A DNA stretch of 64,000 bases. Origin: an uncultured virus (IMG/VR IMGVR_UViG_3300030330_002895). Lineage: Duplodnaviria > Heunggongvirae > Uroviricota > Caudoviricetes. The stretch is from positions 1 to 64,000 of the IMG/VR virus record IMGVR_UViG_3300030330_002895; one strand, written 5' to 3'. The number at the start of each line of letters is the position of its first letter. Position 1 is the stretch's first letter. The position numbers and the translations under genes were made by a program. This document shows positions 12,940 to 63,833 of the stretch, piece by piece. The notes under the pieces are model-generated. The model did no database searches. It was given only the letters and a program-made list of their open reading frames with translations, and was not told where the DNA came from.

Positions 12940-13176
12940 ATGCCTACAAAAACTAAGATTAGAAAAAATCCTTTTACAGGAGCTACTAGAACTACTACAA
13001 AAACTACAGACAGTGAAGGTAAAAAAACTAAATACGTTTCTACGTCTAGTGGTAAGAAAAAATTTAAGAAAAATGGCGTAAAAAGAAAAAACACAAAAGA
13101 ACAAAAAAAATCAATAAACGTTAAATTAAAAAAGGGCGGCAAAATTAGAAATATGTTTACAGAGCAATACGATTAA
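12940..13176 (+). CDS. small basic protein with GG...QYD tail
   Basis: Lys/Thr-rich, ends LKKGGKIRNMFTEQYD. Confidence 0.75.
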   Translation: MPTKTKIRKNPFTGATRTTTKTTDSEGKKTKYVSTSSGKKKFKKNGVKRKNTKEQKKSINVKLKKGGKIRNMFTEQYD

Positions 13177-13177
13177 T

Positions 13178-13357
13178 ATGAGCAAAAAAATTAAAATAGG
13201 AGATAAAAGTTATGTAAAAGATGGCAACAATTTTGTTGAAGAGTCAAATTACAAAAACTATATAAGAAAAAAAGACACTGCTACAAAAATTGGTGGAGCT
13301 TTAAGTAAAGCTCAAAATGTTGCACCAAAATTTCAAGAGCATGTCCAAAAAGATTAG
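13178..13357 (+). CDS. small basic protein (59 aa) ending QKD
   Basis: MSKKIKIGDKSYVKDG...TKIGGALSKAQNVAPKFQEHVQKD; overlaps the terL start. Not in the ORF track. Confidence 0.6.
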   Translation: MSKKIKIGDKSYVKDGNNFVEESNYKNYIRKKDTATKIGGALSKAQNVAPKFQEHVQKD

Positions 13358-15161
13358 AAAATACGCCCCAATTATTTATGAGGGCATACCTGACTTAGAC
13401 CCAGAGTCTGTATCTTATCAAGAGTTTTGGGAAGAACAGATACATAGGTGTAAAAACGGATACAAGCCAAAAGGCATGGACCGTATAACAGGAAAACATT
13501 ACTATTATCTTAATTTTTATAAGATACTTGGTAATAGTGGAGAGGATGGTAATAGAAAAACTCTAATAGCTCCTTGGTATAGAGACTTAGATAAATTGTA
13601 TTTTGATTTATTTGAGCAATGTAAGGAGGAAGAGAAAGGAATGATTATTATTAAAGCCAGAGATAAAGGTTTTAGTTATATGAATTCTGCGTTATGTGGA
13701 CATGAATACACGTTTTATCCATATAATGAAGTGGGAATTGCTGCTGGTTTACAAGTTACAGCAGATTCGTTCTTTGACAAGGTGAAAAAAGGATTAAATG
13801 GTCAACACATTAATCTTAGACATTCTGTTTTAAAAGACACGTCTGATATTATTAGAAGTGGATATAAACAAAAGTCTAAAGATGGTAAATGGCAAATAAG
13901 TGGCTATCAATCTGCTATACATTGTAGAACAATGTCTAATCCTGAAGTATTTAAAGGAGAACGTTTAAGTGTTATGATATTTGAAGAGGCTGGTGAGTTT
14001 AAAGAACTATTAAATGCGTATATGTCATCTAAAGCTTGTTTTATGGATGGAAATATACAATTTGGTGTACCAGTTATTGGTGGTACGGGTGGTGACATAG
14101 AAACATCCTCTAAAGATTTTATGGAAATGTACTATAATGCAGATTCTTTTAATCTTATACCTATGTTTATACCTGCATCTGTATGTTATCATGGTTTTTT
14201 TGATATAAAAACAGGAGTTAGTGATGAAGTGGGTGCAGAAAAAGAATTATTAGAACAAAGAAAAAAGTTAGAGGGCAGAGATAGTAGCAAGGCGTATAAT
14301 TTACATATACAAAACTATCCACTTACTGTAGAAGAAGCTTTCTTAAAAACTAAAGGCAGTAGATTTGATTTATCCCTAATAAATGCACAGAGAGGTAGAA
14401 TTATGGGACACACTAAATTTAAAAATCAAATACAAAGAGGAAGATTAGAATGGGTTTTTGATGATGAAGATGGTTTTATAGAACAAGTAGAATGGGTAGC
14501 TGATAAAGGGGGACCATATTTAATTCTTGAACATCCAAATGAAGAGTATGATAATTTAGATATAGGTGGTATAGATTCATATGACCAAGATACTGCAGAA
14601 GCATCTACATCTTTAGGTAGTGCTTTAATATATAGAAGATTTGTGTCAACAGAAATAGCAAGCGACTATATAATAGCAGATTATACAGAAAGACCTAAGA
14701 CTGCAGAAGAATTTTGGGATGGATGTTTAAAATTAGCAGTATATTACAATGCAAAAATGCTTGTAGAGTACACAAAAATTGGTATTATAGATTATTTTAA
14801 AAGAAAAGGGGCTTTAAGATATTTAAAAGAAAAACCAAAAACTGCACATGCTCCTGGCACATTAACCAGGAATAGATATGGATTACAGATGAATAAACAA
14901 ACTAAATCTGTAATGGAGCAGTACATGGACGATTATATTAAAACAAATGTTGATGATATATGGTTCATAGATTTGTTAAATGAGCTTGCTGATTACGGAA
15001 CAAGAAACACGGATAGGGCGATATCTTTTGGTTTATGTCTAATACACAATGTAGACGTATATCAAATACAAGCAAGAGAAAAGGAAACGCAAAATAAAAA
15101 GTTGGGATTTGTTTACTATAAAAAAGAAAATGGTAGATTAGTTCCTTATAAAGATGAATAG
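13341..15161 (+). CDS. terL: terminase large subunit
   Basis: ITGKHYYYLNF, KARDKGFSY (Walker A), FEEAG (Walker B), GGTGG, GGIDSYDQD nuclease motif; crAss-type; start at ATG 13341. Confidence 0.93.
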   Translation: MSKKIRKYAPIIYEGIPDLDPESVSYQEFWEEQIHRCKNGYKPKGMDRITGKHYYYLNFYKILGNSGEDGNRKTLIAPWYRDLDKLYFDLFEQCKEEEKGMIIIKARDKGFSYMNSALCGHEYTFYPYNEVGIAAGLQVTADSFFDKVKKGLNGQHINLRHSVLKDTSDIIRSGYKQKSKDGKWQISGYQSAIHCRTMSNPEVFKGERLSVMIFEEAGEFKELLNAYMSSKACFMDGNIQFGVPVIGGTGGDIETSSKDFMEMYYNADSFNLIPMFIPASVCYHGFFDIKTGVSDEVGAEKELLEQRKKLEGRDSSKAYNLHIQNYPLTVEEAFLKTKGSRFDLSLINAQRGRIMGHTKFKNQIQRGRLEWVFDDEDGFIEQVEWVADKGGPYLILEHPNEEYDNLDIGGIDSYDQDTAEASTSLGSALIYRRFVSTEIASDYIIADYTERPKTAEEFWDGCLKLAVYYNAKMLVEYTKIGIIDYFKRKGALRYLKEKPKTAHAPGTLTRNRYGLQMNKQTKSVMEQYMDDYIKTNVDDIWFIDLLNELADYGTRNTDRAISFGLCLIHNVDVYQIQAREKETQNKKLGFVYYKKENGRLVPYKDE

Positions 15162-15163
15162 TT

Positions 15164-17434
15164 ATGTCGTATACAAATTTTCCAAGACAACTACTTAGTG
15201 ATAAGGAAAAGACTAAAGAATGGTGTGAGCAAAATTTGGACGCAATGTCTCCATATATAGCTCAACACAACAATAGTCTTTATGTTAATGATAGATACAA
15301 AGATATTAGAAATTATCAAGCGTATCATGGTCATTTTGACCCAAAAGACTATGAGCATGTAACAGACCAGTACGGAACACCTTTCCCTGCTCGTATGACT
15401 AACTATAATATAATAGCTCCTAAAATAGATTTATTAACTAGTGAAGAATTGCGTAGACCACTAGAAACGCAAGTAAATTCTATAAATAAATCTGCAGTTC
15501 AAAGAAAACAAGATATAAAAGTAGGTTTAGTAGCAGAAGCTCTTTTGTCAGAAGTTAAAAAAGAAGTAAACCAAACTATGGGTATGCCTATAGCAGAAAA
15601 TGTTATGGGAATGGAAATACCAGACAACATAGAAGAGTTTATGCGATATACTTATAAAGAGGCTATAGAAGAAACAGTAGAAGATGGATTAAACTATTTA
15701 AAAGAAAGATACCGTTGGAAAGATTTGTTTAGAAATGGTTTTAGAGACCTTTTGGTAACAGGTAAAGTTTTTTATAAAACAGAGGTGGTAAACGGAGACC
15801 CTACGATAAGAAAAATAGACCCAAGAAACATTGCTTTTGATGTTTCAATAGAAAGCGATTATTTAGATAATGCGCAATGGGTGGTAGAACAAAGGTGGTT
15901 AGGTATAAACCAAATACTAGATGAGTATGGTGAAGAGCTAACTAAAGAAGATGTAATGGAATTGGAAAAAATGAGACACATATCTTCAGGAGATGAATTG
16001 GCTCATTACAACTCTAATTTAGATTGGATACAGTACGATAGTTCAACTGGTGTAAAAGTTAGGCTTATACACGGAGAATGGAAATCTATACGAGCTATTA
16101 AAGTAAAAATATCCCCTAATAAATATGACCCTACTAATCCATTTAGAAAAATAGTCAAAGATACTTATAGACCAAGAAAGGGAGAAGAGGTAGAAACTAA
16201 ATATGTAGACGATATTTGGGAGGCTACTAAAATAGGTGGTCAAATAATGGTTAATTGCAGACGTAGACCAAATCAAGTAAGGTCTGTAGATGATGCGGGA
16301 CCAGCTTCATTATCTTATGTTGGTTGTATACATAATTTATCTTCAGGTAGAGTTACAAGTTTAGTGGACGTTCTTAAACATATTCAAATGTTATATAATG
16401 TGGTTATGTACCACATAGAATTAACATTATCTAGAGCTGGAGGAAAAGCTGTTGTTTACGATGTTTCACAAATGCCGTCAAATATAGGTATGGATATGCA
16501 AACTGTATTGTATCATATTAAAAATGACGGAATCATTCCTATTAATTCTAGGGATGAGGGTGGAGTAGATACCGCAAGATTTAACCAGTTTCAACAAGTA
16601 GATTTTACATTGTCAAATTCTGTACAACAGTTAATGAACTTAAAATTAATGCTGGAACAAACTGCAGGTCAAATTTGCGGTATATCTCCCCAAAGAGAAG
16701 GAGCTGTTTCTCAATATGAAGCAGTCGGCAATGTTCAAAGAACTGTAACACAATCTAACCTAGTAACAGAAAGTTGGTTTTATCAACATTCAGAAGTTAA
16801 AAAAAGAGTTATAGAGCAAGTTTGTAATTTAATGAAGGTATGTTGGGCTGAAGGTAAAAAAGCTGGATACATACTAGGAGATGGTGCTTTTAAAATGTTA
16901 AAAGTTTTACCTGACGTTGCATTAAATGATTATGGTATATTTATTACTGAAGGAGGTAAAGAAGATGCTATAAAACAAGCAATAACACAAATGGCACAAT
17001 CTGCTTTACAAAGTGGTAGTATTGGTTTGTTAGATGTTATTAAAGTTTTAAAATCTGATACACTTACGGAAGCAGAACATATATTAGAAAACGGATTGCA
17101 AGAAATGCAAAAACAACAAAAAGCTGCACAAGAAGCGCAAATGCAAGCACAAAAAGCTGCTGCGCAAGAAGCTCAAGCACAACGTGAACATGAAACTAGC
17201 TTGAAAAAATTAGATGTTGATGGTAAAGTAAAAGCGGCTGAAAAATTAAATGAAGGCAAAATAGCTGTTGCCAATATACAAGCAGATTTAGAAGCTGATA
17301 TAGCAGACGATAAGATAAGGGCTAGTTTTGACAAAGAAGCTATTCAAGCAGACCATAAGCAGAAACAAGAACAAATGAAATTAAAGCATGATAAAGAAAA
17401 GTCTGACAAAGACAGACGTGCAAAAAACAAGTAA
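15164..17434 (+). CDS. portal protein
   Basis: Follows terL; NYNIIAPKIDLL, DIWEATKIG, GISPQREG motifs and a coiled-coil C-terminus as in crAss-like portals. Confidence 0.9.
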   Translation: MSYTNFPRQLLSDKEKTKEWCEQNLDAMSPYIAQHNNSLYVNDRYKDIRNYQAYHGHFDPKDYEHVTDQYGTPFPARMTNYNIIAPKIDLLTSEELRRPLETQVNSINKSAVQRKQDIKVGLVAEALLSEVKKEVNQTMGMPIAENVMGMEIPDNIEEFMRYTYKEAIEETVEDGLNYLKERYRWKDLFRNGFRDLLVTGKVFYKTEVVNGDPTIRKIDPRNIAFDVSIESDYLDNAQWVVEQRWLGINQILDEYGEELTKEDVMELEKMRHISSGDELAHYNSNLDWIQYDSSTGVKVRLIHGEWKSIRAIKVKISPNKYDPTNPFRKIVKDTYRPRKGEEVETKYVDDIWEATKIGGQIMVNCRRRPNQVRSVDDAGPASLSYVGCIHNLSSGRVTSLVDVLKHIQMLYNVVMYHIELTLSRAGGKAVVYDVSQMPSNIGMDMQTVLYHIKNDGIIPINSRDEGGVDTARFNQFQQVDFTLSNSVQQLMNLKLMLEQTAGQICGISPQREGAVSQYEAVGNVQRTVTQSNLVTESWFYQHSEVKKRVIEQVCNLMKVCWAEGKKAGYILGDGAFKMLKVLPDVALNDYGIFITEGGKEDAIKQAITQMAQSALQSGSIGLLDVIKVLKSDTLTEAEHILENGLQEMQKQQKAAQEAQMQAQKAAAQEAQAQREHETSLKKLDVDGKVKAAEKLNEGKIAVANIQADLEADIADDKIRASFDKEAIQADHKQKQEQMKLKHDKEKSDKDRRAKNK

Positions 17435-17445
17435 AAAATATTAAC

Positions 17446-17453
17446 TATCTTTG
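17446..17453 (+). promoter_or_regulatory. -7 element TATCTTTG
   Basis: Intergenic TAnnTTTG about 30 nt upstream of ATG 17483. Confidence 0.65.
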
Positions 17454-17482
17454 TAGCAAAGTAAAGAGCAAAAATTATAATT

Positions 17483-18508
17483 ATGAGTGAAAACACAAAA
17501 ACAGGCGAAGACCTAATTGAAAAGGTTGAGCAACAAGTTGAGGAAACAACAGAAAACAATGAAAGTGCTGGGTTTAACCCTAAAGCATTTATGTCAGAAG
17601 ATTCTTCTGAAGTTAAAGAAGAAGCTGTAGAAGAGCAAAAAGAAGAAGCAGTAGAAAATAGAAGTGCAGAAGAAGAGGAAGAAACAGATGAAGATGATTT
17701 TTCTTGGGACTCTATAGAAACTGAAACTAAAGAAGAAAGTGTAAAAGAGGAAGAAGAGGATTGGGACGCTAAACCTGAAGCAAAAGAAGAAGAGTCTGAC
17801 AAAACAGAAGAAAAAGAGGCGCCATATGATTGGGAAACTCTAGCTAGCGAAATAGGGGTTAAAGCTACAGATGAAGAGAGCTTTAAAGCCGCAGTAAAAC
17901 AAATGCTAGACAACCCAGCTCCTGTAAATGATACTATTACACAGTTGCAGGATTTTATAAAAATGGGTGACCGAAAACTTATCGAAGCTGACCTTGAGGC
18001 ATCGGGAATGGAAAAAGAAGAAATTAAAGATACTGTAGATAGAATGCAGGATTCTGGTCTTCTAAAAAGGGAAGCTGTTATGTTAAGAAAAAATTTGCAA
18101 AACTATATTGCTAATGAAAGAGATAGATTAAGAAAGATAGAAAAAGAAAGAGTTGCGACAAAAGAGAAAGAAAATCTAAATAGCAGAAAAGCTTTGCAAA
18201 AATATATAAAAGAAAAAGAGGACTTTTTTGGAGGTAAAATTAAAAACACCGAAAAGAAAGAACTTTATAACTATATAACATCAGGAGAATTTTCTGAAGA
18301 ATTATACAGTACTCATGCCAATGTTGCGGATGCTGCGTTCTTATGGAAATATAAAGACAAAATCTTTAAGATGTTACGTGGCCAAGGAATGGAAAAGGGT
18401 AAAGCCGCAGTAATTAATAAAATTACTAATCCAAACTTAGGACGAAAGTCTCAGCATGTTGAAACTAAACAAAAAAGTGGTTTTGACCCTGTTGAGTTTA
18501 TGAAGTAA
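17483..18508 (+). CDS. acidic scaffold-like protein between portal and capsid genes
   Basis: Very Glu-rich N-terminal half, helical C-terminal half, conserved crAss position. Confidence 0.7.
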   Translation: MSENTKTGEDLIEKVEQQVEETTENNESAGFNPKAFMSEDSSEVKEEAVEEQKEEAVENRSAEEEEETDEDDFSWDSIETETKEESVKEEEEDWDAKPEAKEEESDKTEEKEAPYDWETLASEIGVKATDEESFKAAVKQMLDNPAPVNDTITQLQDFIKMGDRKLIEADLEASGMEKEEIKDTVDRMQDSGLLKREAVMLRKNLQNYIANERDRLRKIEKERVATKEKENLNSRKALQKYIKEKEDFFGGKIKNTEKKELYNYITSGEFSEELYSTHANVADAAFLWKYKDKIFKMLRGQGMEKGKAAVINKITNPNLGRKSQHVETKQKSGFDPVEFMK

Positions 18509-18543
18509 TAAATAAGAAGGCAACGCTATTTTATTTGTTATTG

Positions 18544-18553
18544 NNNNNNNNNN
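18544..18553. other. assembly gap (10 N)
   Basis: Run of n; hides the start of the capsid gene. Confidence 0.99.
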
Positions 18554-19951
18554 ACAACGGATGAGAACGCGTTGGTAACCAACTTACTAAAATACCCAGA
18601 GATAGGTAAGAAAATTATCTCTCAATATCCACGTTTCTCTCTAACATATTTGTTAGAAGCTGCAGGTAGAAATGCTGCAGAAAAAGTTATCGGCGATTAC
18701 GCTTTCGAATGGAAGATGATGGGTCGATACAGAAAACCATGTACAATTCACACATCTACAGGAGGAGCTACAGGCGCTATATCTGCAGGTAGTACATTTA
18801 CATTAACTTTTACACATGATACTGCTAATGGTACTTATGGTAATAATTTAAATGTAAACGATGTAGTTAGAATGCCTTCTGGTAACACAGCAATCGTAAC
18901 AGATGCTGGTACTCCAGGTTCTGCTTCTAATGTAGTAACATTCCGAGCTATAGACGCAATTAACGAAACTACAGCTGATGGTGATGTTATAGGTTGTATT
19001 GGTAATGCATTTAATCAAGGTTCATTAGGGTCTGAGGTAGGACAAAACTACGCTTACCCAGATACTTACAAGAACTGGTTAACTCTATCTCGTAAAAAAA
19101 CAAAAATTATGGGAACTGACTTAACTGATGTTACTTGGATTGAGTCTAATGGACACAGATTATGGTATTTCACAAAAGAACAACAAATGACTGACCAGTT
19201 TATGTATGAGCTAGAACTACAAAGATGGTATGGTAAAAAATCATATGCAGAAACAAGTGGACTTGTTACTAGTGCAGATGATTATCCAGGTGATAGAGGA
19301 GACCATATAGCAGGATTACCTATGATGGGTGATGGTTTATTAGCACAAATTGATGGAGCTAATCAAGCTACATATACAGCTGGTGCGTTAACTGAAGAAG
19401 ATATTGTAAACTTTATTGGTACACTTTCTAAAAATGCATTAAATGCAGAAGGAAATGTATTTACAGTATTTACTGGTACACAAGGAAGAATTGACTTCCA
19501 CAGAGCTATGAAAGACTTATTAGTTACTCTAGGTTCTGGTACTCCAGTATTCGCTGGTAAAGGAGGAGGTGATGTAGCATTAGGTGCTAACTTCCAAGAG
19601 TACAATGTTTTAGGTAATAAGATGATTCTATCTTACTGCCCAGTATTTGATGACCCGAACTTACATAATTCTATTTCATCTACATTTGATACTTCAAATG
19701 AATCAGGTAAAATGGTATTTATTGATATGGGAATTCAAAATGGTGTTAGTAATGTAGAGTTAATTGCTAAAGGTGCTGAAGGTTTTAACAGAAGTTTTGT
19801 TAAAAAATATGTACCTGGAATGGTTAACCCTTATGACTATAACTCGATGATGGCTGCTAACGGTGATGACTTCTTTGAATGTCAAATTCTTTCTGAATCT
19901 GGTATTATTCTTAGAAACCCATTATCTTGTGGTATATTATCTAATTCGTAA
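18554..19951 (+). CDS. major capsid protein (5' end in the gap)
   Basis: Frame is open from 18554 (TTDENALVTNLL...); FEWKMMG, GDGLLAQI, VFTGTQG and GIILRNP motifs plus position are typical of crAss-like MCP. Confidence 0.88.
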   Translation, partial: TTDENALVTNLLKYPEIGKKIISQYPRFSLTYLLEAAGRNAAEKVIGDYAFEWKMMGRYRKPCTIHTSTGGATGAISAGSTFTLTFTHDTANGTYGNNLNVNDVVRMPSGNTAIVTDAGTPGSASNVVTFRAIDAINETTADGDVIGCIGNAFNQGSLGSEVGQNYAYPDTYKNWLTLSRKKTKIMGTDLTDVTWIESNGHRLWYFTKEQQMTDQFMYELELQRWYGKKSYAETSGLVTSADDYPGDRGDHIAGLPMMGDGLLAQIDGANQATYTAGALTEEDIVNFIGTLSKNALNAEGNVFTVFTGTQGRIDFHRAMKDLLVTLGSGTPVFAGKGGGDVALGANFQEYNVLGNKMILSYCPVFDDPNLHNSISSTFDTSNESGKMVFIDMGIQNGVSNVELIAKGAEGFNRSFVKKYVPGMVNPYDYNSMMAANGDDFFECQILSESGIILRNPLSCGILSNS

Positions 19952-19961
19952 ATTGATTTAT

Positions 19962-19993
19962 AATGGGGTGGGCAACTGCCCCATTTAACTTTT
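19962..19993 (+). terminator. hairpin/terminator after MCP
   Basis: AATGGGGTGG-GCAA-CTGCCCCATT followed by TAACTTTT. Confidence 0.7.
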
Positions 19994-20007
19994 AAAAATA
20001 AAATAAA

Positions 20008-20313: not shown

Positions 20314-20327
20314 TAAATCAATGTGAC

Positions 20328-52529: not shown

Positions 52530-52534
52530 ATTTG

Positions 52535-52542
52535 TATATTTG
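52535..52542 (+). promoter_or_regulatory. -7 element TATATTTG
   Basis: 4 nt before ATG 52547. Confidence 0.65.
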
Positions 52543-52546
52543 TATG

Positions 52547-53611: not shown

Positions 53612-53612
53612 T

Positions 53613-54362: not shown

Positions 54363-54364
54363 TT

Positions 54365-54589
54365 ATGGCTTTTAAAGATATTATGGGCAAAATTGGTGGC
54401 GCTGTTAAAGGTGCTGCAGGTGCTGGTATGTTAGGACCAGTAGGAATGCTAGCAGGTAAACTTTTAGGTAAGAAAGGAATGCGAGTAAAAAAAGGAAAGA
54501 AAAAAATGATGGGCGGTGGAAAGATGAAATATAAGTATAAAAAAGGAGGCTCTGTAAAAAGAGATATGTTTACTCAGCAATACGACTAA
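54365..54589 (+). CDS. small basic Gly/Met/Lys-rich protein with GG...QYD tail
   Basis: Ends YKKGGSVKRDMFTQQYD. Confidence 0.75.
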   Translation: MAFKDIMGKIGGAVKGAAGAGMLGPVGMLAGKLLGKKGMRVKKGKKKMMGGGKMKYKYKKGGSVKRDMFTQQYD

Positions 54590-54951
54590 TGTATACTTAC
54601 AAAGCAGAGGTAGCAAGAGTTATTGACGGAGACACAATAGATGCTAATATAGATTTAGGGTTTGATGTAACCATAAAAAAAAGAATTAGATTAGCAGGCA
54701 TTGACACTCCAGAGTCTAGGACTAGAGACTTAGAAGAAAAAAAGCGTGGACTAGCGTCTAAAGATAGATTGGTAGAGCTTTTAGATAAAGGCAATTTAGT
54801 TGTAGAAAGTCAAAGCGTTGGCAAGTTTGGAAGAGTTTTGGGTGTATTACATGTATATCCTGATGATTTAGACCTGCCTATTAATGTTAATGACACCTTA
54901 GTAAAAGAGGGTTTTGCTGTTGAATACTGGGGTGGAAAGAAAAAGAAATGA
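54589..54951 (+). CDS. thermonuclease (SNase-like)
   Basis: RVIDGDT, RIRLAGIDTPE, GKFGRVLG motifs. Confidence 0.92.
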   Translation: MYTYKAEVARVIDGDTIDANIDLGFDVTIKKRIRLAGIDTPESRTRDLEEKKRGLASKDRLVELLDKGNLVVESQSVGKFGRVLGVLHVYPDDLDLPINVNDTLVKEGFAVEYWGGKKKK

Positions 54952-55163
54952 TGAATATATTTAAGGACGATAATAACTGGAACGAAAAATCTATAATTGG
55001 ATTTGTTGCCTTTGCTATTATGGTCTTAATTATGATAGCTGATTTAGTAACAGGGTGGGTGGGCAAAGACCTAGTTATTAATAAGTTTGTATATGACTCC
55101 TTTGTGTGGGTAGTTCTTGGATGTTTTGGAATTAGTGGAGTTGAAAAATTCGCAAAAAAATGA
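54948..55163 (+). CDS. small two-TM membrane protein (holin-like)
   Basis: Two hydrophobic helices and a GISGVEKF basic tail. Confidence 0.6.
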   Translation: MMNIFKDDNNWNEKSIIGFVAFAIMVLIMIADLVTGWVGKDLVINKFVYDSFVWVVLGCFGISGVEKFAKK

Positions 55164-55441
55164 AAGAAATATCAGAAGATTCTAAATTTGAAGTAAGCCT
55201 AAAATCATTAGGAGGCTTAGCAGTTTTAATTTTTGCTTTTGTAGGTATGTGGTTTACACTACAAGCCGACATAGCTGAGGCAAAAGAACTTCCAATCCCA
55301 CCTAAACCAGAAGTTACCAAAATGGAATTTGATATGAAAGACAAAATGATACGTGCAACTATTATGACAACACAAGAAGATGTGAAAGAAATTAAAGAAG
55401 ACATTAAGTATCTTAGAGACAAAATAGATGACATGCAATGA
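55160..55441 (+). CDS. membrane-anchored coiled-coil protein
   Basis: One TM segment (LGGLAVLIFAFVGMWF) followed by a heptad-rich tail. Confidence 0.65.
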   Translation: MKEISEDSKFEVSLKSLGGLAVLIFAFVGMWFTLQADIAEAKELPIPPKPEVTKMEFDMKDKMIRATIMTTQEDVKEIKEDIKYLRDKIDDMQ

Positions 55442-55827
55442 ATATAGCTAATCATATATTAATTTTATTGGGTGTTTTATTTTTTATAGTAGGTAGCGCT
55501 TTTGGACAGGACTTTGTAAGTTCTGACAACTTTAACAAAACAATAGCAAAAGATGTTGTTGTAGTGGAGTTTTGGGTAGAATGGAACGCCTCTAATCAAT
55601 TTGCAGAATTAAACAAATTAAAAGAGTGTGAAAAGTATAGGGTAGATATAGGCAAGTGCAATAAGATACAAAACAAATATAATGTATCTGCAATACCAAC
55701 TGTTTTAGTTTTTGAAAACGGAGAGGAAAGAGAAAGGTTTGGACCTAATATAATGTTTCAATTAGATGCTGACAAAAAAACAATACAACACTCTGTAGAT
55801 ACAATAATATTAAATAAATTTCAATAA
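55438..55827 (+). CDS. exported thioredoxin-fold protein lacking CxxC
   Basis: Signal peptide ending AFG-Q; VVVEFWVEWN, YNVSAIPTVLVFENGEERERF. Confidence 0.75.
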   Translation: MNIANHILILLGVLFFIVGSAFGQDFVSSDNFNKTIAKDVVVVEFWVEWNASNQFAELNKLKECEKYRVDIGKCNKIQNKYNVSAIPTVLVFENGEERERFGPNIMFQLDADKKTIQHSVDTIILNKFQ

Positions 55828-56318: not shown

Positions 56319-56329
56319 AATAAAAAATT

Positions 56330-59300: not shown

Positions 59301-61771
59301 ATTTAAATGATGAAGACACTGAAACAACAATTATACCTATAGCTAGAGCTCATCAATTTAATTTTAAACCTGCTTTTGATGGGTCTGTGCTTACAGACGC
59401 CACCCCTGTAGCTGGACAACCTGGAGCTTATGAATTTCTTTTTAGGTTTGTTACCCCATTTGGAGGTGCTAATCAAGTAAATTCAAACACATTAGATAGT
59501 GTTATGGACACGGGTTGGGATTATATAGATTGGGATAATGCTGGTGATAGAAAATTTGTGGTTGAATATAGGTTTGCAAATTTAAAAACAATGTCTCCAC
59601 CTTTTGTTCCTGAAATAAAAAATTGGATTTTTTTAAACGCAAGTAAAAGGGTTTCTATTGTTAACTCTATGCAACAAAGTGTATTAAAATTTACAGGCTA
59701 TGAGCCTTTAATAGGGAGAACTAATCCTGGTAATATTAATAAAAACTATTGGACTATGGGTACTTCTGTTGTTGTAAATGGTAATTTTCCAGAAGTTCCA
59801 AACCCTGACAATTCTGGAATTTTTTCTAACGACGCACTTTATAGAATAGAGCACGTACCTCCAGAAGGTAGTATAATTAAATTTTTTTTAGAAGATATTG
59901 GAGATGAATTGGGTGAAGGCTACACAAATGTTGCAGAAAATTCAAGTTGGGATTATTATGGATATGGAGGGTCACTTGAAAATGAATTACCTATTGGTAC
60001 TAATCAAGGTGGGCAACCTAGCGATATATATGATACATATGATTACTTTAATCCTTATTTTAATATTGAGATTAAAAGTACGTGGCAACATACGAATGGT
60101 CGATTTGGTATAGATATAAATCGTTTAACAGAAGTGTTGTGGGACGGTGCTCTTGGTGCTGCAATGGGTGCTCCAACGGGGGGTAATTACAGCGCTGCAT
60201 TGTGGGGCGTAGAAATTAATCCAGAACATTATCCAATATATCAAATAGACCAGCTACCTAATGAAGGAGAATCTCTTTTTAAAGTTTACAATGCGTTGGG
60301 TGATGGTTTTGGTACTGAATTACCTCCAATTCTTTTTGATATGTATTATTTAAATGAATCAACTGGAGAAACAGGTATTGTAGAAATACGTAATGCAAGT
60401 TTGTATATGAGCATTCCTATCGCAAATAATGGATTGTCTTCTCTTTATAATGACAATAGCGGCCCTGTAAATGGTACTGGTGGAAGTTCTGGTTTTAATA
60501 TAGAAACACCACTTAATTATCAAAATTGGAATGGAGTAAATGCTTTAGACGACACTCCTTATATTGAACAAGTAGCTAATCAACAAAATATGTTATCTAG
60601 TGCGTGGTTAATTCCAAGGTCAAGAATTTTAAATACTAAGCGAATATTTTGGCATGGGGCTACCTCACAGAATACGGAAGAAAATGAAATAATTACTTCA
60701 TATTATGGAATGACATATAGTGAAATAAATTCTAATTGGCAGGGTCTTGCAGGTTATTTATCTTTAAGCCCCATAGACAATGAATTTGAGACTAGAGGAG
60801 GCTCTAACAATAGTAGGGACATAACTGCTATATTGCCGCAAAACCCAGAGTGGCATGGCAATCCAATGAAATTTTGGTTTGAAAGCAGAGAGTTTTACAA
60901 GCCAAGAATTATAGGGGGACCTCCTCCAGAGCTTGGTGGAACAAACCCGTATTGGCAAGCAGAAGAAATATGTTTAAGAGCGGGTGGAGTTTTTATAAAT
61001 AAGATTAGTGGAGGGCATGTAGAAATTAATGCACAAAATTGTTCATATACTGATGTTTTTTGGACTCCAGAAATAATGGCTGAATGGCCAACAGACCCAG
61101 AGTCAGGACTTTTTATTCCCGCAGAACACCCTAATGGAAGTGGTCAATTAATATATGGAAAAGTTTATGCTTATTGGGTTCCTCCTGGAAGAGGTATGGC
61201 TCCTCCAAGAATAACTTTTTTAAGCAAAAGTATTAGAAGGGTAAACTATACAGAATTTTTAGGAACTGATGCGCAAAGTCAGCCTTCTAGGGTTGTAGAA
61301 AGAAAAGGTGAATTGAGAGTGTCAGGAACAGCCATGACTATGGATTTGATGAAACTTACAATAAATGAACCTCCTGAATATAATTTGTTTGAATACACGG
61401 TAAAAATAACTAAGGCTGATGACCCAGAATTTATATATGATACTTTTGATATAGACGCATCTGTGCCCTTTCCAACTGATTTTGAAAATTATGATTGGTC
61501 ACAACCCACTACTGTCACAAATCAAACTACAATATTTTTAGGACAAATGGGCATACCTGATGGTCAAGAATTGCAATTTTATATAAAACCAAAAGAAAGT
61601 TACAGGCAGTTTGATACATCTCAAGAATCCTACATAAGATTAGCTGGGACATACTTTTCAACTACATGGGGAAATAATTCGTATCTTAGTGAAGACGTGT
61701 TAACTCCTGTAAAAGCAAATTATTGGTTATATGGAGATTTTGTAGTAAATAAAAATAACGAAAACGAGTAA
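56330..61771 (+). CDS. giant acidic tail fibre/spike-like protein (1813 aa), family E domain with a huge insertion
   Basis: The first ~107 aa and the C-terminal NYWLYGDFVV align to the 163-aa neighbour. Confidence 0.65.
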   Translation: MPENISTYWAKNVKIKTLRGNRFEFVLNVRNEDGSDYSFPEGHVAFFAAFKNVSNPVGTIMPTSSGAAIPFKTLVEEGKITVNTLGGEESFYPIVGTYSYILFTYNPNDVGVNLEDLMENIIPNWHLRVGWMSDELTDLWTNPYETDSNILQNGYYDEWFHVVGDEGLYPCFIPEWKLLQANQESGSNLYYSQPLIDFPYINNDYLDNNDVWSNNKLTYQNGMEELVLKTIIHRKNIVKCIFDERQYLYKWSVVPIPVRYNSQCSVTNIPPPATEIFPNASSWTNIDGDSYTFHTGNYPFNFSQYVNIDPENSEIGTVFSAEELFNLSQYFDIDTGLTTIDFATIDMPDTVINLLPFVDTVDEMLSEDISSPGFGLNSQDFSYTGFSTMSAATSSFMYATFNYFYEQSLELSANYVPGDLLYYPINAEFDSNTVFSFQMYFSGLNPEQTFLSWGIFPYGNGPSANNLVATNLVAPGYFGFPTFEEYIEFNSIGGSPPGNYTQGLNDWRRIKPEKVGLPYAPIESLDDLDTLLSPPPMGVSDYFTVMFGGASLEYPDAFPWWSYYQTGGTGNINVPYVSNYSAIFAEGAEITDAWLPFYSPQSLVDWNEDYLIFPKTSYFVDMFNTYPELGHIPTDAIGIEEPTNVMLEQLGNEFPISPEHQNLPVNTNTPGWNLIPYLGLESTLWNYLNYTNEADLPGFVLSGGGDVTYWGVPIEDAYEQTPTYNEYIFEYDGVVYDFSTWSLEPSVDENGFPILNTLQEQQAWYGNNQINDQGEPTGLIDDNLTVYTPFASPDSFGYSFPGGYYNPANQGLPPIPNSIVDFVSNTPGLDGTIYDLWWNMSNSLINSITEVSSVFSNQIYLQEQSPVTAFDIGINNGLDFQTSSYGYNNVTEDFFNQSYAPQFDVYISGYILNAMAAHVRFYQEGTNIGTGQIHAFCRITRPDGTGFPVKPEFNTIYGEYEINEFNQIQSQAGSSSYVTPYGLGMFTEVYNLNDEDTETTIIPIARAHQFNFKPAFDGSVLTDATPVAGQPGAYEFLFRFVTPFGGANQVNSNTLDSVMDTGWDYIDWDNAGDRKFVVEYRFANLKTMSPPFVPEIKNWIFLNASKRVSIVNSMQQSVLKFTGYEPLIGRTNPGNINKNYWTMGTSVVVNGNFPEVPNPDNSGIFSNDALYRIEHVPPEGSIIKFFLEDIGDELGEGYTNVAENSSWDYYGYGGSLENELPIGTNQGGQPSDIYDTYDYFNPYFNIEIKSTWQHTNGRFGIDINRLTEVLWDGALGAAMGAPTGGNYSAALWGVEINPEHYPIYQIDQLPNEGESLFKVYNALGDGFGTELPPILFDMYYLNESTGETGIVEIRNASLYMSIPIANNGLSSLYNDNSGPVNGTGGSSGFNIETPLNYQNWNGVNALDDTPYIEQVANQQNMLSSAWLIPRSRILNTKRIFWHGATSQNTEENEIITSYYGMTYSEINSNWQGLAGYLSLSPIDNEFETRGGSNNSRDITAILPQNPEWHGNPMKFWFESREFYKPRIIGGPPPELGGTNPYWQAEEICLRAGGVFINKISGGHVEINAQNCSYTDVFWTPEIMAEWPTDPESGLFIPAEHPNGSGQLIYGKVYAYWVPPGRGMAPPRITFLSKSIRRVNYTEFLGTDAQSQPSRVVERKGELRVSGTAMTMDLMKLTINEPPEYNLFEYTVKITKADDPEFIYDTFDIDASVPFPTDFENYDWSQPTTVTNQTTIFLGQMGIPDGQELQFYIKPKESYRQFDTSQESYIRLAGTYFSTTWGNNSYLSEDVLTPVKANYWLYGDFVVNKNNENE

Positions 61772-61772
61772 A

Positions 61773-62063
61773 ATGAAATATTTAGTTGACAAAACATCTG
61801 GATTAAATATAGTTCATAATAATTTAAGTGGATTGCCAGAAATTACTATTAACTTAAGTTTGTCTAAAGCAAAAATAGTTTTAAAAAATAGCGCACATAT
61901 AAGTGGCGTTTACGATTTAAACACTGGTAAAAAAAATCCAGGAATGTCATATTGTGAAATACAAGAAAAAAAACCAACCATTACAGATGATTGGATTTCT
62001 ATTTCATCAACTACAAAAAATCAATTATCCCTTAACTTAAAAACTAAATTAAAACAATTATGA
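61773..62063 (+). CDS. hypothetical protein
   Basis: 96-aa ORF tightly coupled to its neighbours. Confidence 0.6.
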   Translation: MKYLVDKTSGLNIVHNNLSGLPEITINLSLSKAKIVLKNSAHISGVYDLNTGKKNPGMSYCEIQEKKPTITDDWISISSTTKNQLSLNLKTKLKQL

Positions 62064-62548
62064 AATTAGAAGTAATACGAGTGTCTAATAGCAATGACTC
62101 TACAAGTGGTTTATTATATATATCTCATGGAGATTTTGACAAAGAGTTTTTGTGTTACACTTTAGAAGATGAATATAGAAAAGAAAAAAAATATGGAGAA
62201 ACTAGAATCCCTGAAGGGACTTATAAGCTTGGCCTTAGAACAGTTGGTGGCTATAATGAAAAATATAAAAAACGTTTTAAAGACATTCATATTGGCATGC
62301 TTCACGTTCTTGATGTGCCTAATTTTGAGTATATACTTATACATTGTGGTAATACTGACGAGCATACAGCTGGCTGCCTCCTTGTGGGAGACACCCAAGA
62401 AAACAACAAAATCAAGAAGGACGGTTTTATAGGTAAGTCATCACAAGCATATAAAAGAATATATCCTGAAATAGCTAAAGCTATAAAAATAGGTCAGGAA
62501 GTAACAATCACATATAAAGATATAACTAACGGTAATTGTGTATGTTAA
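62060..62548 (+). CDS. DUF5675-family protein, putative endolysin
   Basis: CYTLED, TRIPEGTY, ILIHCGN...TAGCLLVG; adjacent to a holin. Confidence 0.78.
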   Translation: MKLEVIRVSNSNDSTSGLLYISHGDFDKEFLCYTLEDEYRKEKKYGETRIPEGTYKLGLRTVGGYNEKYKKRFKDIHIGMLHVLDVPNFEYILIHCGNTDEHTAGCLLVGDTQENNKIKKDGFIGKSSQAYKRIYPEIAKAIKIGQEVTITYKDITNGNCVC

Positions 62549-62928
62549 AAGGTATAGTAAAAAACCTGATAGGTAATGCAGGTGAAATATTAGATGAGGT
62601 AATAACCACAGACGAAGAAAGGTTAGATGCTAAAAGAAAGCTTAAAGAGCTGATACTCAGTCATCAAGCTCAAATGGAGCAAAATATAACTGACAGGTGG
62701 AAAGCTGACATGAACAGTGATTCTTGGCTTTCAAAAAACGTTAGACCATTAATGCTTATATTTGTAATGGTATGTACCATGCTTTTAATATTTATAGACG
62801 CTGGATTTCTTGAGTTTCAAGTGGAAGAAAAGTGGACAGATTTATTAACAATGGTACTAATAACAATCGTGGGTTCTTATTTTGGAGGACGTTCGTTAGA
62901 AAAGGTTAGAAATGGCAAAGCTAAATAG
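62542..62928 (+). CDS. holin (3TM/GTA-holin-like)
   Basis: RWKADMNSDSWLSKNVRP, two hydrophobic helices, YFGGRSLEK. Confidence 0.78.
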   Translation: MLKGIVKNLIGNAGEILDEVITTDEERLDAKRKLKELILSHQAQMEQNITDRWKADMNSDSWLSKNVRPLMLIFVMVCTMLLIFIDAGFLEFQVEEKWTDLLTMVLITIVGSYFGGRSLEKVRNGKAK

Positions 62929-63037
62929 TTTTATATACAGAAGTAATGGGGGTAAAAAACGAAAAGGCGTGCATAGCAAAAATGCTAGCAAGTCACAAAA
63001 TAGTTACAAAAAACCCTATAGGGGACAAGGAAGATAA
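62912..63037 (+). CDS. small basic protein ending YRGQGR (41 aa)
   Basis: MAKLNSFIYRSNGGKKRKGVHSKNASKSQNSYKKPYRGQGR; this C-terminus recurs in aquatic phage small proteins. Not in the ORF track. Confidence 0.7.
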   Translation: MAKLNSFIYRSNGGKKRKGVHSKNASKSQNSYKKPYRGQGR

Positions 63038-63040
63038 ATT

Positions 63041-63370
63041 ATGGCAAAAACACCAGCATGGCAAAGAAAAGAGGGTAAAAACCCTAGTGGTGGCTTAAAT
63101 AAAAAAGGAGTTGCTTCTTATAGAAGAGCAAACCCTGGCTCTAAACTTAAAACAGCTGTAACCACTAAGCCTTCTAAATTAAAAAAAGGAAGTAAAGCTG
63201 CTAAAAGACGTAAATCTTTTTGTGCTAGAATGAAAGGTATGAAAAAAAGACTTACTAGCGCAAAAACAGCAAGAGACCCAAATTCAAGAATAAATAAATC
63301 TCTTCGTAAATGGAATTGTAATACAGGTTGTAGAGTTCCTATGAGAAAAGCTGGAGAACAATACGATTAG
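63041..63370 (+). CDS. small basic protein (DUF6321-like) with QYD tail
   Basis: AWQRKEGKNPSGGLN...RRKSFCARM...SLRKWNC core, then NTGCRVPMRKAGEQYD. Confidence 0.75.
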   Translation: MAKTPAWQRKEGKNPSGGLNKKGVASYRRANPGSKLKTAVTTKPSKLKKGSKAAKRRKSFCARMKGMKKRLTSAKTARDPNSRINKSLRKWNCNTGCRVPMRKAGEQYD

Positions 63371-63372
63371 TT

Positions 63373-63564
63373 ATGGCAAAGAAAGATGCATGTTATTATA
63401 AAGTAAAACGTAGATATAAGGTTTGGCCTTCTGCATATGCAAGTGGTGCATTGGCTAAATGTAGAAAAAAAGGTGCTAAGAATTGGGGAACTGGTGGTAA
63501 AAAGAAAAAGAAAATGGCGCATGGTGGTAAAATTTGTTGTTTAATGAAGTATCAAAAAGATTAA
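63373..63564 (+). CDS. small basic protein with GG...QKD tail
   Basis: DACYYKVKRRYKVWPSAYASGAL core, ends MAHGGKICCLMKYQKD. Confidence 0.75.
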   Translation: MAKKDACYYKVKRRYKVWPSAYASGALAKCRKKGAKNWGTGGKKKKKMAHGGKICCLMKYQKD

Positions 63565-63833
63565 TGGCTGTACGTAAAACAAAAAAAGGTTTAGCTCTTA
63601 AACGATGGTTTAAAGAAGATTGGAGAACTCCGTCAGGCAAAAAAGATTATAGTGGTGGTGAAAGCACATTTCGTCCTACAAAACGTGTATCAAAGAAAAC
63701 GCCCTCTACATGGTCAGAGCTTACATCTGCAGAAAAGGCTGCGGCAAAAAAAGAAAAAAGAAAAAAGGGTAGGGTTGGTCGATATAAAAAGAAAAGAAAA
63801 AAAGAGCAAGGAGGTTTAATACAATACGATTAA
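63564..63833 (+). CDS. small basic protein (DUF5872-like) with GG...QYD tail
   Basis: LKRWFKEDW...RPTKRVSKKTP core, ends KEQGGLIQYD; start at the TAATG overlap. Confidence 0.75.
   Translation: MAVRKTKKGLALKRWFKEDWRTPSGKKDYSGGESTFRPTKRVSKKTPSTWSELTSAEKAAAKKEKRKKGRVGRYKKKRKKEQGGLIQYD

What the first reader, a model, noticed from the sequence alone, without database searches (positions are those of the whole stretch)
12940..63833. Shared C-terminal tag (G-x-[KR]-hydrophobic ... Q-[YK]-D-stop) on six unrelated small basic proteins
Seen: ORFs at three distant loci end alike. 12940 ...LKKGGKIRNMFTEQYD; 13178 ...TKIGGAL...HVQKD; 54365 ...YKKGGSVKRDMFTQQYD; 63041 ...NTGCRVPMRKAGEQYD; 63373 ...MAHGGKICCLMKYQKD; 63564 ...KEQGGLIQYD. 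Their bodies are not homologous. Three are widespread phage domains whose recognisable core stops before the tail, so the tail looks appended. Inference: a modular address label, such as a capsid-loading signal for DNA-condensing core proteins, a degron or a conjugation handle. I know of no description of such a tag in crAss-like phages. Caveats: the four QYD ends share CAATACGA(T/C)TA and all abut the next start, so an RNA-level role is possible. The 13178 QKD overlaps the terL start and may be coincidental.
Basis: partly seen in the sequence, partly recalled or inferred. Interest (0 to 1): 0.85.

Follow-up and report, generated by a model that had tools for sequence, protein, structure and literature searches.

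The report
Shared tail tag on phage cationic proteins
In one lineage of uncultured marine crAss-like phages, many unrelated small lysine-rich proteins end in the same short peptide (…Gln-x-Asp), which looks like a portable address label that probably sends them into the phage head, although no packaging has been measured.

Summary
All six ORFs end as described. The degenerate QYD-stop DNA pattern hits four times against 0.30 expected, each time at one of these ORF ends. In relatives I found 79 distinct tailed proteins in 18 unrelated body clusters. The consensus is …G-M-K-Y-K-x-G-G-x-hydrophobic-[RK]-Q-[H/L/Y/K]-D-COOH.

Conservation is at the protein level. Codons, stop codons and spacing to the next start all vary. 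Bodies are swapped or deleted while the tail stays. Homologous bodies in other phage lineages lack the tail.

The tail tracks this window's TerL/portal/MCP lineage, not the lysis and envelope genes shared with tail-less phages. In T4-like cyanophages the same modules are fused into a protein with virion-proteomic evidence.

My best reading, at about 0.45, is a lineage-specific C-terminal head-loading tag for cationic internal proteins. The amidoligase-handle and RNA-signal ideas are disfavoured. No receptor is identified. The kind is known (T4 capsid targeting sequence, encapsulin cargo peptides), but this variant appears undescribed.

The parts
12940..13176 (+). Small basic protein (78 aa, pI 10.7) with the tail ...KKGGKIRNMFTEQYD. 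The body is hypervariable.
   Evidence: One search gives the sequence and the pI. The gene is absent from G001. The bodies in G004, G005 and G007 are unrelated, but the tail GG[KR][IV]R[ND][MT]F[TK]EQYD is kept.
13178..13357 (+). 59-aa basic protein just upstream of terL and overlapping it. It ends ...IGGALSKAQNVAPKFQEHVQKD.
   Evidence: Orthologues end QKD, QRD or QND in 6 of 6.
54365..54589 (+). 74-aa protein with a Gly/Ala-rich hydrophobic N-terminus, a variable basic linker and the tail KKGGSVKRDMFTQQYD.
   Evidence: 7 of the 8 homologues found end ...DMF[TK][QE]QYD, and the eighth is a 42-aa truncation. At the same slot G006 and G007 carry a different small basic gene ending GGNIMRQYD or GGNILKQHD. 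G008 has no gene there.
63041..63370 (+). DUF6321 protein (109 aa) with the appended tail NTGCRVPMRKAGEQYD.
   Evidence: Pfam DUF6321 matches residues 12-91 at E 2.9e-20. In a tblastn against phages, the 40 listed rows of 505 matching records all end at query residue 97 or earlier. The G008 homologue ends ...SLRKWKC*.
63373..63564 (+). 'modA' module (the N-terminal half of Pfam DUF5872, 63 aa) with the tail HGGKICCLMKYQKD.
   Evidence: In G001 an unrelated body (MAKIKGADGKACWKGY...) carries the same tail, GGKICCLLEYQKD.
63564..63833 (+). 'modB' module (the C-terminal half of DUF5872, 89 aa) with the minimal tail GGLIQYD.
   Evidence: Of 1177 homologues, the best 120 share a core ending ...KGRVSRYKKKK and then carry this tail, other tails or none.
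12408..12935 (+). Conserved 175-aa all-helical protein of unknown function, next to the tailed genes. It is context and a candidate partner.
   Evidence: It is 52-58% identical in the wider tail-bearing lineage and lies directly upstream of the tailed gene cluster in L080, L084 and L096. The AF2 model has pLDDT 61 and is all-helical. No fold match was found.
13317..19951 (+). Head module that co-varies with the tail: TerL (13317-15161), portal (15164-17434), a very acidic 341-aa protein (17483-18508, a candidate scaffold) and the crAss-type major capsid protein (18572-19951).
   Evidence: PHROGs and Pfam assignments are. The 341-aa protein has pI 4.6 and a Glu/Asp-rich N-terminal 120 residues. 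MCP at about 57% identity is found only in tail-bearing records.
62912..63037 (+). 41-aa basic protein in the same cluster that lacks the tail. It is a counter-example.
   Evidence: It is also present in tail-less phages.
63835..64000 (+). Start of a 92-aa basic protein that runs to genome position 64113 and lacks the tail. It is a counter-example.

Best explanation
The tail is a portable, protein-level address tag. It is 7-20 residues long, with the consensus (G-M-K-Y-K-x)-G-G-x-hydrophobic-[R/K/E]-Q-[Y/H/L/K]-D and a free C-terminus.

Shown: within one lineage of marine crAss-like phages, the one sharing this window's TerL, portal and MCP genes, at least 18 unrelated families of small, lysine-rich proteins carry it. 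The one such protein I folded (modB) was predicted with low confidence.

Inferred: the tag most likely docks these cationic proteins to a lineage-specific part of the head-assembly machinery. Candidates are the inner face of the capsid protein or the acidic 341-aa protein encoded between portal and MCP. Docking would build them into the procapsid as internal proteins that end up with the packaged DNA. The Gly-Gly in front of the tag may be a hinge or a release site.

The role would match the N-terminal capsid targeting sequence of the phage T4 internal proteins and the C-terminal cargo-loading peptides of encapsulins. The tag's modularity, protein-level selection and lineage restriction are shown. 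Head loading and the receptor are inferred.
For: (1) Enrichment. The QYD-stop pattern hits 4 times against 0.30 expected. Genes ending Q[YHK]D number 5 of 76 in G000 against 0.017 expected, 5 of 101 in G006, 4 of 93 in G007 and 2 of 79 in G001, and 0 in the four tail-less genomes G008, G011, G013 and G014.

(2) Protein-level selection. In 36 distinct tail DNA contexts, Gln is CAA 35 and CAG 1. The middle residue is TAC 11, TAT 6, CAC 6, CAT 2, AAA 9, AAG 2. Asp is GAT 27 and GAC 9. Stops are TAA 28, TAG 5 and TGA 3. The next ATG lies at offsets from -1 to +11.

(3) Modularity.
- The 12940 gene is absent in G001, and its bodies in G004, G005 and G007 are unrelated, yet the tail is kept.
- The 63373 tail sits on a different body in G001.
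- The 54365 slot holds a different tailed gene in G006 and G007.
- In all, 79 distinct tailed proteins fall into 18 body clusters.

(4) The same bodies occur without the tail in other lineages.
- The G008 DUF6321 homologue ends at ...KWKC*.
- Among the 120 best modB homologues, 22 end Q[YHL]D, while the others end in poly-Lys or in unrelated tails.
- G011, G013 and G014 carry modA, modB and DUF6321 at 53-80% identity with no Q-x-D end.

(5) Lineage tracking.
- Tail-bearing G016-G019 share TerL (66-68%), portal (54-56%) and MCP (50-52%) with G000. Of the 175-aa and 341-aa proteins, the 341-aa one is shared by all four and the 175-aa one by three of them; G018, a partial record, has no match. 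The tail-less genomes do not share these genes, although they share lysis and envelope genes at 50-92%.
- Among 39 records holding modB, a close MCP (E 1e-138 or lower) occurs in 4 of the 4 tail-bearing records that are at least 58% complete, and in 0 of 7 tail-less records at least 90% complete.
- Of 80 modB loci, 11 are tail-bearing. In 10 of these, at least two ORFs share the same Q-x-[DS] end. None of the other 69 does.

(6) Virion link for the bodies.
- The P-SSM2 protein PSSM2_123 fuses modA, a CW module and DUF6321, and lies between gp15 and the small terminase gp16.
- Its cluster, T4-GC 119, is marked 'Existence of Proteomic Data? YES' in the ORF table of Sullivan et al. 2010 (PMC3037559, supplement 2, row 119).
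- The cluster includes Syn9 gp114 with the same modules.
- Syn9 gp114 and S-RIM8 gp114 carry the motif MPPTYNEIF[NG]E near the N-terminus. This resembles the T4 capsid targeting sequence as I recall it.

(7) Gene position. The tailed genes sit directly upstream of terL here and in L080, L084, L089 and L096.
Against: - There is no direct evidence that any tailed protein is in a virion, and no receptor is identified.
- The large presumed cargo proteins of this phage (547, 644, 626 and 3981 aa) do not carry the tag, so it is not a general cargo signal.
- Two other small basic proteins in the same cluster (41 aa and 92 aa) lack it.
- One tailed gene (54365) lies in an envelope and lysis-type module, and several clusters lie beside the holin. 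That location would also fit a non-virion role.
- No prohead protease or recognised scaffold family was found.
- The association with the head-gene lineage is confounded by common descent, because replication genes of that lineage co-vary too.
- The cyanophage proteomic flag is for a fused homologue in a very different phage, and I did not see which virion it was detected in.
Confidence: 0.45

Rival explanations
1. The tag is a docking peptide for another lineage-specific phage component unrelated to head loading. Examples are the terminase or portal during packaging, a chaperone or regulator, or a shared zipper that lets the different cationic proteins co-assemble with each other.
For: The tag tracks the phage lineage as a whole, replication genes included. 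The tailed genes sit next to terL and next to a conserved 175-aa helical protein of unknown function. Other cargo-sized proteins lack the tag.
Against: Eighteen families sharing one label fits a high-copy receptor better than a 5- or 12-copy motor or portal; this is inference. Homologous modules in cyanomyoviruses belong to a cluster with virion-proteomic evidence.
Confidence: 0.2
2. The tail is a removable pro-peptide or a degron. It would be cut off at or near the Gly-Gly, or read by a C-terminus-specific protease, to time or limit the activity of otherwise sticky cationic proteins. This can coexist with head loading, as in T4 or herpesvirus scaffolds.
For: In 62 of 79 tailed proteins a Gly-Gly lies 5-19 residues before the C-terminus. 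Tail-less modB homologues end just where the Gly-Gly would start. In other lineages N-terminal extensions end in ...KGG just before the body. The tail is predicted to be disordered, with pLDDT about 35.
Against: No protease family was detected in the genome. The DUF6321 tails often lack Gly-Gly. A host-protease degron should follow the host, yet tail-less phages that share lysis and envelope genes at 75-92%, and so probably have similar hosts, carry the same bodies without it.
Confidence: 0.15
3. The tail is a conjugation handle for the phage's Amidoligase_2, class-II glutamine amidotransferase and GGCT-like enzymes, giving a Pup/PafA-like ligation through the terminal carboxylate.
For: G000, G001, G006 and G007 all encode Amidoligase_2 (window 4320-5561), a GATase (5575-6594) and a GGCT-like protein. 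The tail has an invariant terminal Asp.
Against: PF12224 is absent from 5 of 5 further tail-bearing records, including the 98%-complete G017.
Confidence: 0.03
4. The signal is at the nucleotide level. It would be a translational-coupling element, a recombination boundary or another RNA/DNA element at gene junctions, with the amino-acid similarity as a by-product.
For: In the window the four QYD ends share CAATACGAYTAR, and all abut the next start. C-ending codons are over-used at the middle position: TAC plus CAC make up 17 of 25 Tyr and His codons there, against 19% and 30% genome-wide.
Against: Synonymous codons, all three stops and several spacings occur in relatives. The middle residue changes chemistry (Y, H, L, K) while Gln and Asp are fixed. 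The conserved part extends about 20 residues upstream with many synonymous differences. The C-bias has a simpler explanation: TAT-GAT and CAT-GAT would create an out-of-frame ATG just before the next gene's start (inference).
Confidence: 0.03

Closest known systems
Capsid targeting sequence (CTS) of phage T4 internal proteins IPI, IPII, IPIII and Alt (review PMC9026906, passages read)
   Same: It is a short portable peptide shared by unrelated, mostly basic proteins. It is proposed there as an evolutionary device for putting varied proteins into the head. The same cationic modules found here occur in T4-like cyanophages behind a CTS-like leader.
   Different: The T4 CTS is N-terminal, about 10 residues long, binds the scaffolding core and is removed by the gp21 protease. 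The tag here is C-terminal and ends in an invariant Gln-x-Asp with a free carboxylate. No protease is known, and loading is unproven.
Encapsulin cargo-loading peptides (abstracts of PMC8346489 and PMC11866011, seen only in the search listing)
   Same: They are short C-terminal peptides on diverse cargo, read by the inside of an HK97-fold shell. They are transferable to foreign proteins.
   Different: Encapsulins are cellular compartments and carry enzymes. Their peptide motif (Gly-Ser-Leu type, recalled) differs in sequence. Binding of the present tag to the capsid protein is not shown.
C-terminal coat-binding ends of phage and herpesvirus scaffolding proteins (P22 gp8; the herpes scaffold tail released at the M-site). 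Recalled, with no paper read here.
   Same: A C-terminal segment anchors an internal protein to the shell during assembly, and an upstream cut can release it.
   Different: Those are single dedicated scaffolds, not a label shared by 18 families of small proteins.
Pfam DUF6321 and DUF5872 small viral proteins
   Same: Three of the six window bodies belong to these families.
   Different: The family models and most members stop before the tail. The tail is an add-on specific to one phage lineage.

Membership tests
T4-type capsid targeting sequence | N-terminal propeptide of about 10 residues | tested here: not met
   The shared element is at the extreme C-terminus. The N-termini of the six proteins are unrelated.
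T4-type capsid targeting sequence | Removal by a prohead protease (gp21/S77 type) encoded by the phage | tested here: not met
   No protease family was found among 58 window proteins scanned with PHROGs and Pfam. Divergent proteases could have been missed.
T4-type capsid targeting sequence | Sufficient to load a foreign protein into the head | not testable with these tools
   This needs a bench test.
Encapsulin-type cargo-loading peptide | Short C-terminal peptide shared by unrelated cargo proteins | tested here: met
   There are 79 tailed proteins in 18 body clusters.
Encapsulin-type cargo-loading peptide | Binds the inner face of the HK97-fold shell protein | not testable with these tools
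   No usable structural answer was obtained. This needs binding assays or cryo-EM.
Encapsulin-type cargo-loading peptide | Shell is a non-viral encapsulin with a co-encoded cargo enzyme | tested here: not met
   The shell gene is a crAss-type phage MCP in a complete phage head and tail module.
Pup/PafA-like or amidoligase-dependent C-terminal conjugation tag | Co-occurrence of the tag with the ligase | tested here: not met
   PF12224 is absent from 5 of 5 further tail-bearing records, one of them 98% complete.
Gly-Gly processed precursors (double-glycine leaders; adenain-type GG-X sites; recalled) | Gly-Gly at a fixed distance from the removed peptide, and a cognate cysteine protease | tested here: inconclusive
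   A Gly-Gly lies 5-19 residues from the end in 62 of 79 proteins, but at variable distance. No protease was found.
Pfam DUF6321 (body of 63041) | Match above the curated cut-off | tested here: met
   73.1 bits against a cut-off of 28.5, over residues 12-91.
Pfam DUF5872 (bodies of 63373 and 63564) | Match above the curated cut-off | tested here: met
   63564 scores 49.4 bits against a cut-off of 27.5, matching profile positions 48-113. 63373 scores only 14.6 bits, matching profile positions 13-47. The model therefore spans two modules that are separate genes here.
Crassvirales-like virion module (context) | crAss-type MCP, ring and muzzle proteins | tested here: met
   Crass_capsid 1e-31, CrAss_Ring_1 1.4e-31, CrAss_Ring_2 1.1e-10, crAss_MUZ 8.6e-121. 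The portal is about 27-29% identical to those of known crassviruses in the listed rows, and all 148 matching records are below 60%.

The most novel reading that the evidence does not exclude
Marine phages share a swappable kit of small cationic internal proteins, and each head lineage addresses that kit with its own label. T4-like cyanophages use an N-terminal CTS-like leader and protease-cut joints. This crAss-like lineage uses a C-terminal ...GG-x-hydrophobic-x-Q-x-D tag read through its free carboxylate. The tag would be the first cargo-loading peptide described for crAss-like capsids and a phage counterpart of the encapsulin cargo peptide. It could be used to load chosen proteins into such capsids.
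Probability: 0.4. Interest if true: 0.85.

Novelty: new variant of a known kind. Interest (0 to 1): 0.72.

Why it matters
How crAss-like phages fill their heads with protein cargo is unknown. The ΦcrAss001 structural atlas describes about 5.5 MDa of cargo but, in the passages I read, names no loading signal.

A short tag with a clear sequence rule, found on 18 protein families, makes the question testable. One can fuse the tag to a reporter, mutate Gln(-3) or Asp(-1) or block the C-terminus, and ask whether procapsids take the reporter up.

It also suggests that the widespread DUF6321 and DUF5872 mini-proteins of marine phages are head-internal cationic proteins whose address labels are exchanged between phage lineages.

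If the tag turns out not to be a loading signal, it is still a well-defined short linear motif with an unknown reader in an abundant group of uncultured phages.

Tried and rejected
- A complex prediction of the capsid protein (61-row alignment A2) with modB (23-row alignment A3) returned 'no answer', with scores 0.00 and 0.00 and no controls run. It says nothing either way.
- AF2 of modB gave a low-confidence model: pLDDT 54, with the tail at about 35.
- AF2 of the conserved 175-aa neighbour gave an all-helical model with pLDDT 61. Foldseek against the PDB found no match at E 0.001 or better. Sequence and profile searches of the PDB and PHROGs found nothing for it or for the 341-aa protein. 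Its guess as a small terminase or scaffold therefore stays open.
- The amidoligase link was tested and disfavoured.
- I tested whether another modB tail class (…GCGCPYGMQ.GPNNVL) is likewise shared within its own genomes. It occurs once per contig in 13 of 13 contigs, and no other ORF of G011, G013 or G014 shares it. The 'one label per lineage' rule is therefore shown only for the Q-x-D lineage.
- A permutation test on shared last-three residues is only moderately significant, because it keeps the column composition: in G000 22 of 2000 shuffles reach the observed value, in G007 9 of 2000, and in G001 there is no signal.
- Literature searches for DUF6321/DUF5872 and for capsid targeting with crAss and basic proteins found nothing on such a tag. 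These are word searches of open-access text only.
- The ESM Atlas look-up of modA gave only unnamed viral clusters.
- ARAGORN found no tRNA in the window.
- Look-ups of this scan's own notes for this genome and for DUF5872/DUF6321 returned nothing.


Full report
**What the window is.** The window is the first 64 kb of a 68,469-bp virus record. It has a crAss-type virion module:
- TerL (13317-15161), portal (15164-17434) and MCP (18572-19951; Pfam Crass_capsid, 1e-31).
- Ring proteins 1 and 2 and a 2313-aa muzzle protein (crAss_MUZ, 8.6e-121).

The portal is about 27-29% identical to those of known crassviruses in the listed rows, and all 148 matching phage records are below 60%. Homologues of its small proteins come largely from marine surveys. 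It is therefore a distant, uncultured, marine crAss-like phage.

The six ORFs end exactly as reported. The degenerate DNA pattern for Gln-Tyr-Asp-stop occurs 4 times against 0.30 expected, with 0 of 100 shuffles reaching 4, and every hit is at one of these ORF ends. In a crude greedy gene call, 5 of 76 genes end Q[YHK]D against 0.017 expected; the sixth, 12940, lost its place to an antisense ORF in that call. The bodies are unrelated to each other:
- 63041 is DUF6321 (residues 12-91 of 109).
- 63564 matches the C-terminal half of DUF5872, and 63373 weakly matches its N-terminal half.
- The other three match no family.
- After trimming 20 C-terminal residues, the six fall in six blastp clusters.

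**The signal is in the protein, not the DNA.** I collected 37 tail-bearing ORFs, giving 36 distinct DNA contexts, from this genome and seven related records or fragments (G001-G007).
- Gln is CAA 35 and CAG 1.
- The middle residue is TAC 11, TAT 6, CAC 6, CAT 2, AAA 9, AAG 2.
- Asp is GAT 27 and GAC 9.
- All three stop codons occur.
- The next ATG lies between -1 and +11 of the stop.

One nucleotide oddity remains. C-ending Tyr and His codons make up 17 of 25 at the middle position, although TAC is 19% and CAC 30% of their codon families genome-wide. TAT-GAT and CAT-GAT would each create an out-of-frame ATG a few bases before the next gene's start, which is a sufficient explanation (inference).

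**The tail is modular.**
- The 12940 gene is missing from the complete relative G001. In G004, G005 and G007 the gene at that slot has an unrelated body but keeps GG[KR][IV]R[ND][MT]F[TK]EQYD.
- In G001 the tail GGKICCLLEYQKD sits on a different body (MAKIKGADGKACWKGY…) from the one in the window.
- The 54365 slot holds another small basic gene in G006 and G007, ending GGNIMRQYD or GGNILKQHD. It is empty in the unrelated phage G008.
- The orthologues of 54365 keep the N-terminus and the tail but vary the linker. Seven of the 8 homologues found end …DMF[TK][QE]QYD, and the eighth is a truncation.

**Homologous bodies elsewhere lack the tail.**
- The G008 DUF6321 protein stops at …SLRKWKC*.
- A tblastn of 63041 against 50,697 phage records matched 505 records, mostly cyanomyoviruses and pelagiphages. 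In the 40 rows listed, the match never goes beyond residue 97 of 109.
- Of 1177 homologues of modB (63564), the best 120 share a core ending …KGRVSRYKKKK. After that, 22 carry Q[YHL]D ends, 19 end in KKK, about 13 carry …GCGCPYGMQ.GPN[NK][VI]L, about 8 carry GGGF[IL]LPGP..I, and about 10 carry a Cys-rich …LNEQH-x tail.

**The phenomenon is much wider than the window.** I used the modB alignment to fetch 80 of about 590 matching viral loci.
- Eleven loci are tail-bearing. In 10 of them, two or three ORFs within 5 kb share the same Q-x-[D/S] end.
- None of the other 69 loci does.
- Over 18 sources I counted 79 distinct tailed proteins. They were selected by a pattern that requires Gln at -3, K+R above 15% and length under 220 aa.
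- Their ends are QHD 23, QYD 17, QLD 16 and QKD 11, with a few QLS, QLN, QND and QH-x.
- A Gly-Gly lies 5-19 residues before the end in 62 of the 79.
- The extended consensus is …K-G-M-K-Y-K-x-G-G-x-hydrophobic-[RK]-Q-x-D.
- They form 18 body clusters.

**What the tail tracks.**
- Tail-bearing records G016-G019 share TerL (66-68%), portal (54-56%), the 341-aa protein (33-38%) and MCP (50-52%) with the window. The 175-aa protein (54-58%) is shared by three of the four; G018, a partial record, has no match.
- The tail-less G008, G011, G013 and G014 do not share these genes. They do share lysis and envelope genes at 50-92% and the cationic bodies at 53-80%.
- Among 39 modB-bearing records, a close MCP (E 1e-138 or lower, about 57% identity) occurs in all 4 tail-bearing records that are at least 58% complete. 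It occurs in 0 of 7 tail-less records at least 90% complete. Three shorter tail-bearing fragments had no MCP in the piece held.

The label therefore follows the phage's own head-gene lineage rather than the host-linked lysis module. This argues against a host reader. The association is confounded by descent, because replication genes of the lineage co-vary too.

**Link of the bodies to virions.**
- In Prochlorococcus phage P-SSM2, the modules modA, a Cys-Trp module and DUF6321 are fused in PSSM2_123 (271 aa). This protein lies between gp15 and the small terminase gp16 and ends …RAWNC* without a tail.
- Its cluster, T4-GC 119, is flagged 'Existence of Proteomic Data? YES' in the ORF sheet of Sullivan et al. 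2010 (PMC3037559, supplement 2, row 119).
- The same cluster holds Syn9 gp114 with these modules (supplement 3).
- Syn9 gp114 and S-RIM8 gp114 carry MPPTYNEIF[NG]E near the N-terminus. A 454-aa fused homologue in a marine virus record starts MKTFEQFTEG. Both resemble the T4 capsid targeting sequence as I recall it. The review I read gives its properties but not its letters (PMC9026906).
- Earlier notes of this scan describe cationic-module polyproteins with T4-style leaders in marine T4-like phages. I treated them as leads and checked only the points above.

**Most likely mechanism.** Taken together, the small cationic modules look like head-internal proteins that move between phage lineages. 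The Q-x-D tail looks like the address label of this crAss-like lineage.

A candidate partner, beside the capsid protein, is the 341-aa protein encoded between portal and MCP. It has pI 4.6 and an N-terminal 120 residues that are mostly Glu and Asp. A short motif is repeated near both ends, GFNPKAFM and GFDPVEFMK. Its position and composition are those of a scaffolding protein (inference). None of this is shown.

**Against this reading.**
- The big presumed cargo proteins lack the tag.
- Two neighbouring small basic proteins lack it.
- No protease or known scaffold family was detected.
- Some tailed genes sit beside holin and envelope genes.

**Rivals.**
- A different lineage-specific partner, or self-assembly, cannot be told apart from head loading with these data.
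- A removable pro-peptide or degron is compatible with the Gly-Gly and with tail-less homologues ending where the Gly-Gly starts. A host-read degron fits poorly with the lineage tracking.
- The amidoligase-handle idea fails the co-occurrence test, with PF12224 in 0 of 5 further tail-bearing records, one of them 98% complete.
- The nucleotide-signal idea fails on synonymous variation.

**Novelty.** Shared head-targeting peptides are known in T4, and C-terminal cargo peptides are known in encapsulins. A C-terminal Q-x-D label on 18 families of cationic mini-proteins in crAss-like phages did not turn up in my word searches of open literature or in the passages of the ΦcrAss001 atlas that I read. 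I rate it a new variant of a known kind, of high interest, with the function still to be shown.

Noticed in passing
window 63373-63833: The Pfam DUF5872 model (116 positions) spans two modules that are separate genes here, joined by an overlapping stop and start (GATTAATG). The modules recombine in other orders in fused proteins of other phages (phrog_727, P-SSM2 PSSM2_123, Syn9 gp114).
   Followed up: partly
window 4317-6594 (- strand) and genome 66965-67321 (- strand): There is an Amidoligase_2 plus class-II glutamine amidotransferase gene pair, and a GGCT/AIG2-like gene that I identified by eye. All are conserved in G001, G006 and G007 but absent from the wider tail-bearing lineage. Their function is unknown.
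   Followed up: partly
window 17483-18508: This is a very acidic 341-aa protein (pI 4.6) between portal and MCP. Its N-terminal 120 residues are Glu/Asp-rich, and a short motif is repeated near the N-terminus (GFNPKAFM) and at the extreme C-terminus (GFDPVEFMK). It is a candidate scaffolding protein and matches no family.
   Followed up: partly
tail codons in G000-G007 (for example window 13168-13173): C-ending Tyr and His codons are preferred at the residue before the final Asp: 17 of 25, against 19-30% genome-wide. TAT-GAT and CAT-GAT would create an out-of-frame ATG just before the next gene's start.
   Followed up: partly
window 52532-55827 and 62060-62928: The envelope and lysis-type genes (signal-peptide proteins, SNase-like nuclease, 71-aa membrane protein, thioredoxin-fold protein, DUF5675, 3-TM holin) are shared at 50-92% identity with phages whose head genes are unrelated (G008, G011). 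This is a clear mosaic module.
   Followed up: no
loci of G011, G013 and G014 (for example G011 38599-39627): In these tail-less phages the same cationic bodies carry N-terminal extensions ending in …KGG just before the body (M.NPVYN..GMRVPGMY.KGGS on DUF6321; MS.LKK…KKGG on modA). The peptide PVYN..GMRVPGM[FY]KK also appears as a C-terminal tail on modB in other contigs (P0028, P0049).
   Followed up: no
window 36862-48807, 24463-31404 and 56330-61771: There are three giant ORFs of 3981, 2313 (muzzle) and 1813 aa. The 3981-aa and 1813-aa proteins match no PHROG or Pfam family at the thresholds used.
   Followed up: no
window 18572: The MCP ORF as listed starts at a TTG. In the best homologues the aligned region begins 18-25 residues into the protein, so the N-terminus here may be shorter or mis-called.
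   Followed up: no
window 11467-12406: Two adjacent paralogue-like genes of about 155 aa (MPNLTVTT…, MASTLKVTLT…) recur as a pair beside the cationic gene cluster or the holin in many related loci. Their function is unknown.
   Followed up: no
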